A DNA stretch of 64,000 nt from Lytechinus pictus (lineage: Eukaryota), in NCBI RefSeq assembly GCF_037042905.1, contig NC_087253.1, forward strand, positions 992,001 to 1,056,000. Reading direction: 5' to 3'. The position numbers are program-made. How positions within the stretch are numbered: the first letter of the stretch is position 1; the number at the start of each line of letters is the position of its first letter. Shown here piece by piece: positions 18,001 through 24,000 of the stretch.

Positions 18001-21000
18001 TTTGATACATACAAACAATAGAAAAGAACAAACTAAATGCAAAGTTTTGAACCAAATAAAACAAAATAGATGACAAAAAACTGAAGTTTGATTCCAGAAG
18101 TGTAAGAAATAAAAACAAATCAAATGAAACAGATGAAGAAAAAAATCAATACTAACTTAGGAACAAAATAATTGATTCCATTTCCCAAAAAAATCTAAGA
18201 ATGACAGATATGTGACTGAAGTATGTAGCCAAAAATCTGTATATTTTGACTGCAGTAATGTACATGTGCATTGTACATTGTACATATTCAACCCCTGCCC
18301 ATATCTTCAGTGATTTGGTTAAAAATAAATATACAGAGGATAAGATGGGTAATTCATATATGATGCAGAAAGTAATGACAGTTTTTATCCCATAATTCAA
18401 AATGCAATAATACCTGTTTCATAAAGGACTTACAACTGTTGTAACTTTGCCATTATGGCAACTACCATGGTAACAGGGCTCAGCAGCCAATCAAAATCAA
18501 GGTTTCCATGGAAATTGCAGTAATGGCAAAGTTATCATTGTTGTAACTTTTTATTAAATGGGCCCCGTATCTTTAAACTAAATCAAAAAAAATGTTTGTG
18601 TATTCATTGTATGTAATGACATGAAAAGGGCCTTCACCATATAGGTAATACAGAAGATAAAAGATAAAAACTGTCAGCTTTCTCCATCATATGTGAACAG
18701 ACCTCAAGAAAATGTTTGATTCATTCAATAGAGTTAAGAGGGTGAGTGATAAACACTGCATTCCAAGGTGCGTACATTCCGAAGTAAGAACGTGACACAA
18801 GAGGGCGCACTCACATGGCTGTAGCGCAGACGAGCCTTAAGCTCTGCTGTCTCCGTCTGTGACCTAACTAGCTTGACCTACCAGGAAGGGGCAGGAATTG
18901 TGGGTAATAATATTGCTTCATGTTATCAAAACTACATGTTATCATTAGGGCAGGAGTCTTGAGTCTCAAATTATCAGATACATGTATATTTTGTGATATT
19001 TTATATTCACTGCACTTTGACGAGACGGATTAAAAAGGGCAAAATTTCAATTGCTCTGAAATTACAAAGAGTATAATTTTGAACAAAAACATTTATTTAG
19101 AAGTTCTTTAATACTGGTTAACTATCTTGGATCTATTCTGTAAAAGGAGATTTACCATCTTCATCCACAATCAATTGGGCAAAGCAAGTTTTTCTGAGTA
19201 TTTCATTTCATGTCTATTTCGAACAATATGGATTTTCATTTTCTTTTTTTTTTTCATCAAAAATAATGTGCCTTTTATTTTCCTCATAAGCACTATTTAT
19301 CTGATCAATGATATTTGAACACTATTCTTGTGTTCCTGTATGATATTGATCAATTTATTCAATGTAGTCTTGATTGCTGGAATATCAAACAATAAATAAT
19401 AATAATACTAATACAGTAATAATAATGATAATAATAACAATAGTAATAATAATACAGTAATAATAATAAAAAATAATAACACTAATAATAATAATAGTAA
19501 TAATAATAATACAGTAATAATTAAAGAGTTTTTTTGATAAAATACCTGTGTTTCCATATATTTCTCCTGCCATTTATGACATTCTGATTGAAGGTCTCCC
19601 ACAGTTTTCTGGAAGAAAAATGAACAAAAATCATATCTAATAATAATACAACTAATATCATAATTGTTACCATCATCATCATCTTTATTATTTGTTTGGC
19701 TCAACCCATGCATGGGAGGCCAAAGATAAATTGTATCACTGCAGGTCTGCAGGTCTCTCCTCCCAATATGTAACTGATTGTATGACTGTTGCTCTCAGGT
19801 TTCCCCCTATGTGAATAAGGTTCTTAAAATGCAAAGCTGATCATATTTGATCTAAACTTTGAGCTCTAAAGATTAACAAGTAATACCGTAAGTAATGGTC
19901 TATTAACCGCACCTTTTTCTCGGCGGGATAGAAGCAAAAGTCGGGGGTGCGGTTTATCCACGTGACAGGTCTGAGCCAGCCCGTCGTAACCCCTCCCGAA
20001 CATGTAAGACGTCTGCCAGTTCACAACACATCGAGTGGCCGGGCGTAGCCGCCCAGGGCAATGTTGTTTAGAGGGGTATGAGCCGCGGGTAATGGGAAGC
20101 GATTATTACGATCTTAATCAAATATTGTCCATAACAAACCCATTCACCTTCATGACACTAATTTCGACTTTATTCTCGATTCAAAGCAGCAAAGTTCCCT
20201 GGCTAAGTTCAAAGAGACGCCAAGCATACTCGGTAATATTTTGTCACAGCTGAGAGAGAGTTGAGTGAGCTGAGAGCTTGCGTTGTATTGTGGTTATAGT
20301 GCGACTTAAGCTGGCCCTATTCATTTTAAAGGAGAATTAAACTCTTGGAGCAAGTTAGCTTTTGTGAAAGCAGAAAAATCAAAGAATAAGATCAACAAAA
20401 GTTTGAGTAAAATAGGACTAGCAATAGAAGAGTTATGAGCATTTGAATGTCGAGGTCACTAATGCTATGGAGATCCTCCCATTGGCAATGCGACCAAGAT
20501 CTATGATGTCACAGATGAACAACTCTCCCCTTTTGGACACTGAAAATATACCCTAAAATATCTCTTTTTGCTCATTCTAATCATACGACAAACGATTCAT
20601 CAATGATATAATGTTGTGAAACCTCTGTAATTGTCCTCTCATAAAGAGAACACCTTACCTTGTGATAGACTCTATAAAAGAGAGAATATAAGTGAAATAA
20701 GTACTAAAGTAATGAGGGAGTTGTACGTGTGTGACATCACAGATCTTGGTCGCATTACCAATGGGAGGAACTACATGGCATTAGTGATCTCAATATTCAA
20801 ATGCTCATAACTTTCTTATTATTCATTCAATCTTCCTCAAACTTTCAACAATATGTGTCTTTGATTTTTCTCTTTGATATGGATTCAGCTGGTTTCAAGG
20901 GTTTCATTCTCCTTTAACCCCTCCCCTCCAAAGTCCCTTACCATTTCGCGCCAGCTTATTTTTTCTTTCCCATTTGCTTTTCATGAGATACCATGTACAC

Positions 21001-24000
21001 CACGCATGAGAGAGATGGCACGAAGCCATAAAAACAACTGGAAAAAATGCCAATTTCTTTGTTTCTTGAACCTTCCTGTAATCCCGTATCCAAAATTCAT
21101 GCTAAGACATCGAATGCTAGACAAATTCTGAAGGTGATTGTAAGGTTGTGATGCAAGAAATGTGAATGTTTCTTCCTCCTACGCCGGGAAAGACACAGTT
21201 CATAATTTGATAAGATGTACTGCCTGGTACCGTATCGTAGTTTGCAATGTACAAGAACGGCAATGCTGTGTGTGTACACTGTGACTGTGAGGTGAGTGAG
21301 TGTGTAAGTGACCAATATTTTCTTGCTAACATTTGTAGATGAATTGATCAAGAACAGCAGATTTTTGCATACCAGTAATCTCTTTGGATACTTTGAAATC
21401 TTTAACTTAATTTTTGTTTCTTCGTACAGTGTACCTCAAATATACATGTACCGGTAAATGTGAGAAGGATTTTTTATTTTTTATTTATTTTTTTAGTCCA
21501 AAGTTGGGGGTGCGGTTAATCCACGCGTGCGGTTTATAGTCCGTTACTTACGGGTATTTAAAATTAATTGTAAAATTGTGGACATGGTTTTGAAAAGATT
21601 AACAGTTATCATCAATTGTAAAATTCATATTTAAAATCAATTGTACATACATGTATAATGTTAGAAGAGGTCTATATATGATAACGTTAGTTTCATTCTA
21701 GAATGCTTGAGAACCTCTAGGCAGCGCAGCTAAACACGGGGTAGACAGGAATAACCGTCGTTTCTGGGGATTTTTTAAACAATTTCTGACATTTTACTAT
21801 AATCCCCATTCACCGACGATAGTGTGTTTGTGCGAACCTGCATGTGTAATCACGTCGCCCATTTCGGGCCTATGGTGTTTTGTCTAGATCTTAATTTTAA
21901 AGGATCGAGGATGACTATGTTTTGATCTTCATTTGAAAGGAATTTGCGGTAAATGCGGTCTAAGGTACGATATTTCTGAATTTTATACATTTTTTTTGGT
22001 AAATTCCGAAGTAATTTCTTTTTTATAATGTGACATTTTATGTACAAAAAAAAAATCCGAAAATCAGGTTTCCGCCGAATGTTAGATCTAACGTTACTGC
22101 TAATACGTTGTCTTTACGTACGGGCCAACAACTCTTCAGTCTATAAATTGGTGAGTGGAGCCAACACAGTTCAGCGGAACAACCAAAATNNNNNNNNNNN
22201 NNNNNNNNNNNNNNNNNNNNNNNNNNNNNNNNNNNNNNNNNNNNNNNNNNNNNNNNNNNNNNNNNNNNNNNNNNNNNNNNNNNNNNNNNNNNNNNNNNNN
22301 NNNNNNNNNNNNNNNNNNNNNNNNNNNNNNNNNNNNNNNNNNNNNNNNNNNNGGGCCCCTGATCATTATAAATCAATTTTACAATCAATACCTAGGTGTT
22401 GGTCTGCACACACCCCCTATAATACTAACCTGACTTTGCTGATATTTTGACATTAACTTGTTCATCTCTTGTTGCTGCTCTTCAATCTTAGACTGTGAAA
22501 GATAATAAGAAATAAACAAGTTCAGATGTTATAACAGCTCTGAACCATAGCTCTCTATTGTGCACATTACCAGTAGCAGACCTGCCAACCTCTGGGAATG
22601 AAAAACTGTATTCTGTGATACAAAAAAATGTATTTTCCCCCAAAAAAGTGTATTTCATAATAAAATGCTTGGCGCACTCGCCCATCACGGCGCTCAAGCT
22701 GCATGCAAGCTAAAATGCGCACTGCTCTTGCAGATGAAAAAAAAACCCATTGAAACTTGTGTATATCTCACCCTGGTTTTTACAAAATGATTGGAAAAAA
22801 AAAACAAGTTACCTGAAATTACATTGATCTAATAACCATATTTGTGTACGTTTTATGAAATAGAGACATATAGAGATGATTTTTCTTAATAAATTACGAT
22901 TTAAAAAAAAAAAAAAAACGTATTTTTTAAAGAAAAAACGTACTGCCGTATTTTGGTTGCAAAAACGTACTAAATACGGCTAAAACGTACTGGTTGGCAG
23001 GTCTGCAGTAGGGCACACCCCACATTTTGGATTAGACTACATTTTTGCCCCAAACATTTTATATTTTAAGAAAATGGCCCCAACTGATTCTTGGTCCAAA
23101 TCTAATATCTGAAGTAACAAAAAAAAAAATTCTTGAAAGAAGTAGAGAAACCTGACCCTATAATGAAATCATTGGCATGAGTAAAAGACTTACTATGGAT
23201 ATTTTACTCTTTAGATCAGCTAGAGACATTGTTTTTTCTTGAGTTGAAACCATATGACATGATGAGCAATGGAATCATGAGTGCAATAGTTTGTCTACAT
23301 CCCAGTCTAAAGAGTAGTTTGACCCTGCCACATTTTAGTGTGTGTTAGTGAGAGCATTATACTGAACTACACTATATTCCACTGAAGCATTTAGATTAAA
23401 TACAGTTTATTGCTAGCCTTGTTGGGACACGGTCAAAACATGATGCACATATACTAGTTTTCCTTTTGGTCCTTGTCAGGTATTGAATTCAATAAATTTA
23501 GATCTACAATAATATCCCTGAAATGCAATTAATATCTCAGTCAAACCTGTTTTAGTGGTCATCTCTCTATAGCAGACACCTGTCTATAGTGAACACTAAC
23601 TAAACCCCGCTGAGGTATATTATGTGTACCGGTATAAGAACCTGTATATACAGGCCATGTATTGTGTCAGTACAGACAGGTTTCACTGTATTTGAAGGAA
23701 TAATGTCATATGGCCTTTCTTAAATTTCTCTTCTCTTGCCCTTTTCTTTTAATAATAATGCAGAGAATTTGTATAGCGAGATGCTCATGGCACTTGAGGT
23801 ATTTTTTACATGCTTTTTTATGGAAGGGTAAAAAAACAACCAAAACAATACGTGGTATCAAAGTAGCACATACACTATTCAGAATAGGCATACAGCATAC
23901 AGTACTGACACAGTTTATTGCATAGCGCCATCTCTTGGTCAGGTTTCAACAGTGTATACACCAATACCAATTTATTCAAATTGTATGCATGATTCCCAAC

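What the first reader, a model, noticed from the sequence alone, without database searches (positions are those of the whole stretch)
18815..22492. Three consecutive 63-nt phase-0 exons: heptad-quantised coiled-coil modules
Exons 22430-22492, 19546-19608 and 18815-18877 each encode exactly 21 aa (3 heptads) with symmetric phase 0. Any subset could be skipped while keeping both reading frame and heptad register. Inference: old exon duplications, or selection for splice-tunable length of the liprin-beta coiled coil.
[Added by the scan's program, not by the reader: the finding's places include an assembly gap (unread letters, written N; its length is only estimated) at 22190 to 22352. Whether the letters on both sides are continuous or in frame is not known: test that first.]
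Basis: partly seen in the sequence, partly recalled or inferred. Interest (0 to 1): 0.65.

Follow-up and report, generated by a model that had tools for sequence, protein, structure and literature searches.

The report
Three equal coiled-coil exons in liprin-beta
Three neighbouring small exons of an animal liprin-beta gene each encode exactly three seven-residue repeats of one continuous coiled coil; this is a tidy but probably ordinary gene layout, and nothing yet shows that the cell uses it to vary the protein's length.

Summary
On the minus strand, 22492-22430, 19608-19546 and 18877-18815 are each 63 nt, bounded by AG and GT, open in frame 0 and 21 codons long. They fit a 15-exon, phase-coherent ab initio model. 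Its first exon matches the N-terminus of PDB 8iw0 'Liprin-beta-1' at 18 of 20 residues, E=3e-4.

Heptad registers scored exon by exon are the ones continuity predicts. The flanking exons of 38 and 44 residues start at a and d, and exons A and B start at f; exon C is ambiguous between f and a.

The 163-N gap lies in the intron 77 nt after exon A's donor, so it does not affect the reading frame. It could still hide an exon. The register allows only a hidden length near 0 mod 7 residues (3 mod 7 not separable).

The duplication idea has modest support. A and B share 6 of 21 residues, and 100 of 20000 class-kept shuffles reach their score. B and C show no similarity.

Regulated skipping has no evidence. 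The splice-site scores resemble those of neighbouring exons, and no transcripts or orthologues could be reached. I rate it ordinary, most likely constitutive exons, and of low interest.

The parts
22430..22492 (-). Exon A: 63 nt, phase 0-0, 21 codons, three heptads with the first residue at position f
   Evidence: Only frame 0 is open. Acceptor score 3.4, donor score 9.2. The a/d score is best at f (2.3), with b close behind (2.1); 72 of 2000 shuffles reach it.
19546..19608 (-). Exon B: 63 nt, phase 0-0, 21 codons, three heptads with the first residue at position f
   Evidence: Frames 0 and 1 are open. Acceptor score 4.8, donor score 6.0. The a/d score is best at f (2.7); 8 of 2000 shuffles reach it.
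18815..18877 (-). Exon C: 63 nt, phase 0-0, 21 codons; the register is weak (a scores 1.1, f scores 0.9)
   Evidence: Only frame 0 is open. Acceptor score 5.3, donor score 8.9. 835 of 2000 shuffles reach its best register score.
22190..22352 (.). Assembly gap (163 N) inside intron A-B. It begins 77 nt after exon A's donor. I did not fill it or look it up.
   Evidence: No coiled-coil-like open frame abuts either edge of the gap.
24949..25080 (-). Upstream coiled-coil exon X3: 132 nt, phase 0-0, 44 codons, first residue at position d
   Evidence: 104 of 2000 shuffles reach its score. A PDB search gave only generic coiled coils.
25629..25742 (-). Upstream coiled-coil exon X2: 114 nt, phase 0-0, 38 codons, first residue at position a
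   Evidence: 7 of 2000 shuffles reach its score. A PDB search gave only generic coiled coils.
26251..26325 (-). Exon X1: 75 nt, phase 0-0, 25 codons. Its donor lies 23 nt before the second gap (26050-26227).
15343..15391 (-). Downstream exon D: 49 nt, phase 0 to 1
   Evidence: Its local 3.5-residue phase is -135 degrees, close to A (-155) and B (-162).
14698..14759 (-). Downstream exon E: 62 nt, phase 1 to 0. It has no 3.5-residue signal.
   Evidence: (4826 of 5000 shuffles reach its amplitude).
56354..56426 (-). First coding exon E1: starts at the ATG, 73 nt, ends in phase 1. This is the liprin-beta N-terminal segment.
   Evidence: PDB 8iw0_A 'Liprin-beta-1,KN motif and ankyrin repeat domain-containing protein 1', E=3.1e-4, 18 of 20 residues identical.
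51831..52060 (-). Exon E2: 230 nt, phase 1 to 0
   Evidence: No PDB match and no Pfam match.

Best explanation
These are three real, adjacent coding exons of a liprin-beta gene on the minus strand. Each encodes exactly three heptads of a single unbroken coiled coil of about 145 residues, which runs from exon X2 through exon C.

Shown here:
- The exon bounds, the phase 0-0 symmetry and the 21-codon length.
- The gene identity, through its first exon.
- A heptad frame that carries through the junctions X2 to X3, X3 to A and A to B without a shift.

Inferred:
- The three exons are most likely ordinary constitutive parts of the liprin-beta rod. [quoted passage not shown]
- Their equal size is most simply a legacy of an ancient tandem duplication of a 63-nt phase-0 exon. 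A and B are still faintly alike.
- Such a duplicate would be tolerated because only an insertion of a whole number of heptads leaves the downstream coil in register.
- Skipping any of them is structurally permitted. By the textbook rise of about 0.15 nm per residue (recalled), each exon would shorten the rod by about 3 nm. Permission is not evidence of use.
For: - Exon format and frames.
- Splice scores lie in the range of the neighbouring exons. Acceptor/donor: A 3.4/9.2, B 4.8/6.0, C 5.3/8.9, against X1 6.1/6.3, X2 7.0/5.7, X3 6.9/7.7, D 4.1/9.2, E 3.0/10.8 and F 1.4/10.4.
- All 14 junctions of the 15-exon model are phase-compatible.
- Identity.
- Register: each exon was scored on its own. 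The best first-residue positions are X2=a, X3=d, A=f and B=f, which is what the lengths 38, 44 and 21 predict.
- 3.5-residue hydrophobic phases on the model's cumulative index are X2 -1, A -1 and B -7 degrees. The model's offsets rank 14 of 2401 offset combinations.
- Equal lengths are unlikely under random intron placement: 1.5e-4 for three consecutive equal exons whose length is a multiple of 7 residues, in 2,000,000 trials.
- A-B similarity: 100 of 20000 class-kept shuffles reach the score.
- Two columns are invariant across all three exons.
- No rival exon candidates in the readable introns.
Against: - No transcript and no orthologue could be consulted, so 'constitutive' is only a default.
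- Exon C's register is ambiguous (a 1.1 against f 0.9; 835 of 2000 shuffles reach it), and its phase is +51 degrees.
- X3 is not significant in the Fourier test (2956 of 5000 shuffles reach it).
- The Fourier test cannot tell a shift of 0 from a shift of 3 residues: the resultants are 98.4 and 97.6.
- B-C shows no similarity. A-C (BLOSUM 19) lies within the range of in-register windows from X2 and X3, which reach 20.
- There is no duplicated DNA around the exons.
- Exon A is not richer in G+C than its flanks (0.35 against 0.39).
- The splice matrices are my rough numbers, and the thresholds were set after the fact.
- At 1.5e-4 per gene, a genome with a thousand or so coiled-coil genes could hold such a run by chance.
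- The gap may hide an exon.
Confidence: 0.5

Rival explanations
1. Splice-tunable rod. One or more of the three exons are cassette exons. Their inclusion is regulated so that the liprin-beta coiled coil changes length in three-heptad steps without loss of frame or register.
For: All three exons are symmetric in phase 0 and multiples of 21 nt. The register is the same at the start of A, B and D, and acceptably so for C, so every skipped product would stay in register. The neighbouring phase-0 exons of 25, 38 and 44 codons do not have this property. Heptad-sized exons with variable usage are known in the chicken BG genes (PMC5938342, passages).
Against: The splice scores are not weaker than those of neighbouring exons. 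No transcripts were available. The one alternative PPFIBP1 exon whose number I found in print is exon 19 (PMC8983780, passages); from its number in a 30-exon transcript I infer that it lies past the coiled coil. A second paper reports a regulated PPFIBP1 exon without numbering it in the passages I saw (PMC12721327). My searches for liprin together with mutually exclusive or cassette exons found nothing on the coil exons.
Confidence: 0.2
2. Coincidence of intron positions. The exons are constitutive and were never duplicated. The introns simply sit at the same heptad position because phase-0 introns favour CAG|G-like sites, which recur with the heptad pattern of a Q/E/K-rich coil.
For: 4 of the 6 phase-0 coil exons X1 to C end in CAG. 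B-C and A-C similarity is at background level. There is no duplicated DNA.
Against: Random placement gives three consecutive equal exons of a multiple of 7 residues in only 1.5e-4 of trials. A-B similarity is above the class-kept null, at 100 of 20000. The other three phase-0 exons are not multiples of a heptad.
Confidence: 0.2
3. Not consecutive. A further exon lies inside the 163-N gap between A and B, or the two sides of the gap are not adjacent in the genome.
For: The gap lies inside intron A-B and its length is only estimated. I could not examine what it holds.
Against: A's donor and B's acceptor are intact and phase-compatible. The register goes from f in A to f in B. Extra residues numbering 1, 2, 4, 5 or 6 mod 7 lower the joint resultant from 98.4 to between 44.0 and 83.8. 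No coiled-coil-like open frame abuts the gap. A hidden exon of 7n residues, or of 3 mod 7, is not excluded.
Confidence: 0.08
4. A and B are mutually exclusive alternatives derived from a duplication, so that a mature message carries only one of them.
For: They have the same length and the same phase, and 6 of 21 residues are identical.
Against: The length is a multiple of 3, so including both does not break the frame. The intron between them is about 2.8 kb, which is far too long for steric exclusion. The similarity is low.
Confidence: 0.04

Closest known systems
Liprin-beta-1 (PPFIBP1), as in PDB 8iw0 and in the human gene literature
   Same: The N-terminal segment is 18 of 20 residues identical to the liprin-beta-1 part of chain 8iw0_A. 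The protein has an N-terminal coiled-coil region (PMC9388382, passages). The human gene is also cut into many small exons: 30 in NM_003622.4, with codon 135 in exon 6 and the donor of exon 13 at c.1146 (PMC9388382, passages).
   Different: The three SAM domains that define the family are not in this window, because the gene runs off its left end. I could not learn whether the human or any other gene has three 63-nt exons at this place.
Chicken BG genes, whose cytoplasmic tails are built of 21-nucleotide exons
   Same: Exon length is a multiple of one heptad, so exon number sets the coiled-coil length without a shift of register (PMC5938342, passages).
   Different: BG genes have 27 to 37 such exons of one heptad each, with a split first codon, obvious repeat similarity, copy-number differences between genes and documented variant transcripts. 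Here there are three exons of three heptads each, in phase 0, with faint similarity at most and no transcript data.
Fibrillar collagen 54-bp exons (recalled, no call)
   Same: Exon size is quantised to a whole number of structural repeats, in phase 0, and is classically read as descent from a duplicated primordial exon.
   Different: The repeat is a Gly-X-Y triplet and not a heptad, and there are dozens of such exons.
Alternative coiled-coil exons of tropomyosin
   Same: Exons in a continuous coiled coil are exchanged or dropped to change function (PMC10512467, search listing and abstract only).
   Different: In tropomyosin the use of alternative exons is documented; here it is not.

Membership tests
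Liprin-beta (PPFIBP) family | Conserved N-terminal segment, the part crystallised fused to KANK1 | tested here: met
   8iw0_A, E=3.1e-4, 18 of 20 residues identical over query residues 5-24.
Liprin-beta (PPFIBP) family | N-terminal coiled-coil region | tested here: met
   The heptad pattern is significant in X2 (7 of 2000 shuffles), B (8 of 2000), A (72 of 2000) and X3 (104 of 2000), and the register is continuous.
Liprin-beta (PPFIBP) family | Three C-terminal SAM domains | tested here: inconclusive
   0 SAM matches in the 10 segments scanned. The last modelled exon (2887-2689) ends in phase 1, and nothing plausible follows before the window ends. The 3' part of the gene lies outside the window.
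Heptad-quantised exon arrays (chicken BG type) | Exon length is a whole number of heptads (a multiple of 21 nt) | tested here: met
   3 of 3 exons are 63 nt. The six other exons of the coiled-coil stretch (75, 114, 132, 49, 62 and 79 nt) are not multiples of 21.
Heptad-quantised exon arrays (chicken BG type) | Long tandem array of clearly homologous exons | tested here: not met
   There are only three. A-B has 6 of 21 identities, A-C 5 of 21 and B-C 2 of 21. No repeated DNA surrounds them.
Heptad-quantised exon arrays (chicken BG type) | Variable exon usage or number seen in transcripts or between genes | not testable with these tools
   No transcript data and no orthologue loci were available.
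Regulated cassette exons | Symmetric phase, length a multiple of 3 | tested here: met
Regulated cassette exons | Weaker splice sites than the constitutive neighbours | tested here: not met
   the scores lie within the neighbours' range. The matrices are rough ones of my own.
Regulated cassette exons | Both inclusion and skipping junctions present in RNA | not testable with these tools
Mutually exclusive exon pair | Same length, same phase and sequence similarity | tested here: inconclusive
   Length and phase are met. The similarity is modest: 100 of 20000 class-kept shuffles reach the A-B score.
Mutually exclusive exon pair | A mechanism that forbids joint inclusion (frame break or a very short intron) | tested here: not met
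   63 nt is a multiple of 3. Intron A-B is about 2.8 kb and intron B-C is 668 nt.

The most novel reading that the evidence does not exclude
The three exons form a combinatorial length-setting device. By including 0 to 3 of them, cells would make liprin-beta rods that differ in steps of three heptads (about 3 nm, from the recalled rise per residue) while staying in register. This would set the spacing between the N-terminal KANK-binding segment and the SAM domains in cortical and synaptic scaffolds. It would be a heptad counterpart, in a conserved scaffold protein, of the one-heptad exons of the chicken BG genes.
Probability: 0.1. Interest if true: 0.55.

Novelty: new member of a known kind. 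Interest (0 to 1): 0.22.

Why it matters
If the three exons were used combinatorially, liprin-beta would be a clear case where exon architecture encodes a molecular ruler. That could be tested simply by counting junction reads.

As it stands, the value is modest. The result gives a clean, phase-coherent model of the 5' two-thirds of a liprin-beta gene. It shows that heptad register can serve as an internal check on exon models and on what an assembly gap may hide. It also adds one small example to the known class of exons sized to a structural repeat.

Tried and rejected
- **Pfam.** I scanned the three exons and seven other segments. The three exons matched 0 families. Elsewhere there were only sub-threshold generic coiled-coil matches: DUF16, LRRFIP, FlgK_D1 and DUF4246_N.
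- **PDB sequence search, exon by exon.** X2 and X3 gave only TRAF2, CCDC40 and keratin at E of 0.35 or more. A, B and C gave nothing relevant. E2, the 199-nt exon and the 663-nt exon gave nothing relevant. Only E1 gave a named relative.
- **Repeat search around the exons.** It found only AAT-rich repeats (one search was a format error).
- **Literature.** Seven searches found no statement on the exon sizes or the splicing of the liprin-beta coiled coil, and no paper that cites 8IW0.
- **'Not real exons'.** Rejected: only one frame is open in A and C, the splice sites are good, the phase chain holds and the register is continuous.
- **A recent segmental duplication.** Rejected.
- **The bacterial and archaeal genome collection.** Not used, because it cannot hold an animal gene.
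Full report
**1. The gap, tested first**

The window holds two runs of N: 22190-22352 (163 N) and 26050-26227 (178 N). On the minus strand, exon A ends at 22430 with a canonical donor (CAG|GTTAGT). The first gap begins 77 nt further into the intron. Exon B's acceptor lies 2,581 nt beyond the far edge of the gap.

The reading frame of the model is therefore set by the splice sites and not by the gap's length. Whether the letters across the gap are 'in frame' does not matter for the three exons.

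What stays open is whether an exon lies wholly inside the gap, and whether the two sides are truly adjacent. Three indirect tests speak for continuity:

- A ends in phase 0, and B can be read in phase 0.
- The heptad register found independently in A and in B is the same, with the first residue at f.
- No coiled-coil-like open frame abuts either edge of the gap.

A hidden exon of 7n residues, which includes a fourth 63-nt exon, would pass all three tests. In the Fourier test, so would one of 3 mod 7 residues.

**2. The observation**

Each is 63 nt, bounded by AG and GT, with a pyrimidine-rich stretch before the acceptor. Each is open in frame 0 and has 21 codons. The translations are:

- A: SKIEEQQQEMNKLMSKYQQSQ
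- B: KTVGDLQSECHKWQEKYMETQ
- C: VKLVRSQTETAELKARLRYSH

A and C have stops in both other frames. B is also open in frame 1, but that frame cannot be joined to A or to C.

The bare pattern is not rare. Of 362 AG-63 nt-GT intervals in the window, 127 are open in frame 0. Three things set the three exons apart:

- Splice quality. Only 3 of the 75 minus-strand intervals and 1 of the 52 plus-strand intervals reach the three exons' own minimum scores. The thresholds were set after the fact, and the matrices are my own rough numbers.
- Composition. The three rank 1, 4 and 11 of 127 both by register-f score and by charged and polar content.
- Context, described in the next section.

**3. Context: a liprin-beta gene**

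A simple splice-site and open-frame scan gives a chain of 15 exons on the minus strand in which every junction is phase-compatible:

| Exon | Coordinates | Length (nt) | Phase |
|---|---|---|---|
| E1 | 56426-56354 | 73 (from the ATG) | ends in 1 |
| E2 | 52060-51831 | 230 | 1 to 0 |
| X1 | 26325-26251 | 75 | 0-0 |
| X2 | 25742-25629 | 114 | 0-0 |
| X3 | 25080-24949 | 132 | 0-0 |
| A | 22492-22430 | 63 | 0-0 |
| B | 19608-19546 | 63 | 0-0 |
| C | 18877-18815 | 63 | 0-0 |
| D | 15391-15343 | 49 | 0 to 1 |
| E | 14759-14698 | 62 | 1 to 0 |
| F | 13991-13913 | 79 | 0 to 1 |
| G | 13187-13090 | 98 | 1 to 0 |
| (unnamed) | 12438-12286 | 153 | 0-0 |
| (unnamed) | 7965-7303 | 663 | 0-0 |
| (unnamed) | 2887-2689 | 199 | 0 to 1 |

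After the last exon the gene leaves the window. This model is ab initio and is not backed by transcripts.

I searched it exon by exon. The joined model was not searched, folded or written out.

- Pfam found nothing above threshold in the 10 segments scanned.
- Nine PDB sequence searches were run. Eight gave nothing relevant.
- E1 matched chain 8iw0_A, named 'Liprin-beta-1,KN motif and ankyrin repeat domain-containing protein 1', at E=3.1e-4 with 18 of 20 residues identical.

That is a named hit on the family's N-terminal segment. Liprin-beta-1 is known to bind the first coiled coil of KANK1 (PMC4995097, passages). [quoted passage not shown] The SAM part is not in the window, so family membership rests on two of three defining features.

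Nothing suggests that the contig is human.

**4. Register**

I scored each exon on its own for hydrophobic residues at positions a and d, in all seven registers, with shuffling as the control.

| Exon | Best first-residue position | Shuffles reaching the score |
|---|---|---|
| X2 | a | 7 of 2000 |
| X3 | d | 104 of 2000 |
| A | f (2.3; b is close at 2.1) | 72 of 2000 |
| B | f | 8 of 2000 |
| C | a (1.1) or f (0.9) | 835 of 2000 |

Starting from a in X2, the lengths 38, 44, 21 and 21 predict d, f, f and f. The observed registers are therefore the ones an unbroken heptad frame requires, at three junctions out of three that can be judged. C is compatible but uninformative.

A second, independent measure is the phase of the 3.5-residue Fourier component of Kyte-Doolittle hydropathy, taken on the model's cumulative numbering.

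- The phases are X2 -1, X3 -41, A -1, B -7, C +51 and D +19 degrees.
- The model's offsets rank 14 of 2401 possible combinations.
- Only X2, A and B have notable amplitudes: 144, 242 and 322 of 5000 shuffles reach them.
- This measure cannot tell a shift of 0 from a shift of 3 residues.
- Exon E has no signal, so the regular coil seems to end around exon D.

**5. Origin**

Under random placement of seven phase-0 introns in 207 residues (2,000,000 trials):

- three consecutive internal exons of equal length occur in 1.3e-3 of trials;
- equal and a multiple of 7 residues, in 1.5e-4;
- all exactly 21 residues, in 2.2e-5.

That is rare for one gene, but not beyond what a whole genome of coiled-coil genes, or a scan of many windows, could produce once.

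Sequence similarity gives modest support for common descent.

| Comparison | Identities | BLOSUM62 | Free shuffles reaching it | Class-kept shuffles reaching it |
|---|---|---|---|---|
| A-B | 6 of 21 | 33 | 1 of 20000 | 100 of 20000 |
| A-C | 5 of 21 | 19 | 43 of 20000 | 200 of 20000 |
| B-C | 2 of 21 | -3 | 2609 of 20000 | 8389 of 20000 |

- For A-B at the nucleotide level, 31 of 63 positions are identical, reached by 96 of 20000 codon shuffles.
- In-register windows from X2 and X3 reach a BLOSUM score of 20 against the same exons, so A-C is not above background.
- Two columns (Q at 7, E at 9) are invariant in all three exons. This is reached by 413 of 50000 free shuffles and 1711 of 50000 class-kept shuffles.
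- There is no duplicated DNA around the exons, so any duplication is old.
- 4 of the 6 phase-0 coil exons end in CAG. That is also what a preference of introns for such sites would give.

**6. Splicing**

Nothing in the sequence marks the three exons as alternative. Their acceptor and donor scores lie within the range of the neighbouring exons.

- A 79-nt variant of A, using a donor at 22414, would end in phase 1. It cannot be continued into B, because the required frame of B holds a stop.
- In print I found regulated PPFIBP1 exons only outside this question. One is exon 19, which is TDP-43 dependent (PMC8983780, passages). The other is an unnumbered exon driven by RBPMS and RBFOX2 (PMC12721327, passages).
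- Supplementary tables were closed and may list more events.
- Searches for liprin with cassette or mutually exclusive exons, and for heptad with intron phase or exon duplication, found nothing on liprin coil exons.

**7. Comparison with what is known**

The closest described case of exons sized to heptads is the chicken BG gene family. Its cytoplasmic tails are coiled coils built from 27 to 37 exons of 21 nucleotides, with variant transcripts (PMC5938342, passages). The classical analogue for another structural repeat is the 54-bp collagen exon (recalled, no call).

The present case shares the sizing principle. It lacks the long array, the clear repeat similarity and any evidence of variable use.

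**8. Verdict**

The gene identification and the register claim are supported. The duplication idea is plausible but weakly supported. The splice-tuning idea is untested and has nothing in its favour beyond permissibility.

I file it as a new small member of a known kind, namely exons sized to a structural repeat, within a known gene family. I rate it of low interest unless transcript data show regulated skipping.

**What stayed unchecked**

The genome collection on hand holds only bacteria and archaea, so I did not use it.
- Transcripts.
- The content of both gaps.
- The joined model.

Noticed in passing
window 26050-26227 (with exon X1 at 26251-26325, minus strand): The second assembly gap (178 N) starts only 23 nt after the donor of exon X1. 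Intron X1-X2 is therefore also interrupted close to a splice site.
   Followed up: partly
window 7303-7965, minus strand: A large 663-nt phase 0-0 exon (221 codons) encodes a proline-, serine- and threonine-rich segment without heptads. It contains the same 10-residue motif (PRTIHVPIHI) twice, 40 residues apart, and three look-alike short P-D/E-x-K motifs. Tandem Repeats Finder sees no DNA repeat there, and the PDB gives no relevant match.
   Followed up: partly
window 19377-19540: An AAT-rich microsatellite-like tract starts 6 nt after exon B's donor. AT-rich sequence on both sides keeps exon B's frame open for 62 codons before the acceptor and 45 after the donor. Open-frame length alone would therefore misplace this exon's bounds.
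   Followed up: yes
window 1-317: A tandem repeat of a 75-nt unit, 4.2 copies, 97% matches, sits at the left edge of the window.
   Followed up: no
window 46826-47192: A tandem repeat of a 157-nt unit, 2.3 copies, 93% matches, lies inside the roughly 25-kb intron between E2 and X1.
   Followed up: no
window 14940-15311, plus strand: A 124-codon open frame of purine-rich low complexity (runs of E, K, R, G and D) lies on the opposite strand in intron D-E, just below exon D. It is probably simple sequence and not a gene.
   Followed up: no
window 18815-26325, minus strand: All six exons X1, X2, X3, A, B and C are symmetric in phase 0, and 4 of the 6 end in CAG. Only A, B and C are multiples of 21 nt.
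   Followed up: yes
window 1-2688: The last modelled exon (2887-2689) ends in phase 1, and no plausible exon follows before the window ends. The SAM-domain part of the gene must lie outside the window.
   Followed up: partly
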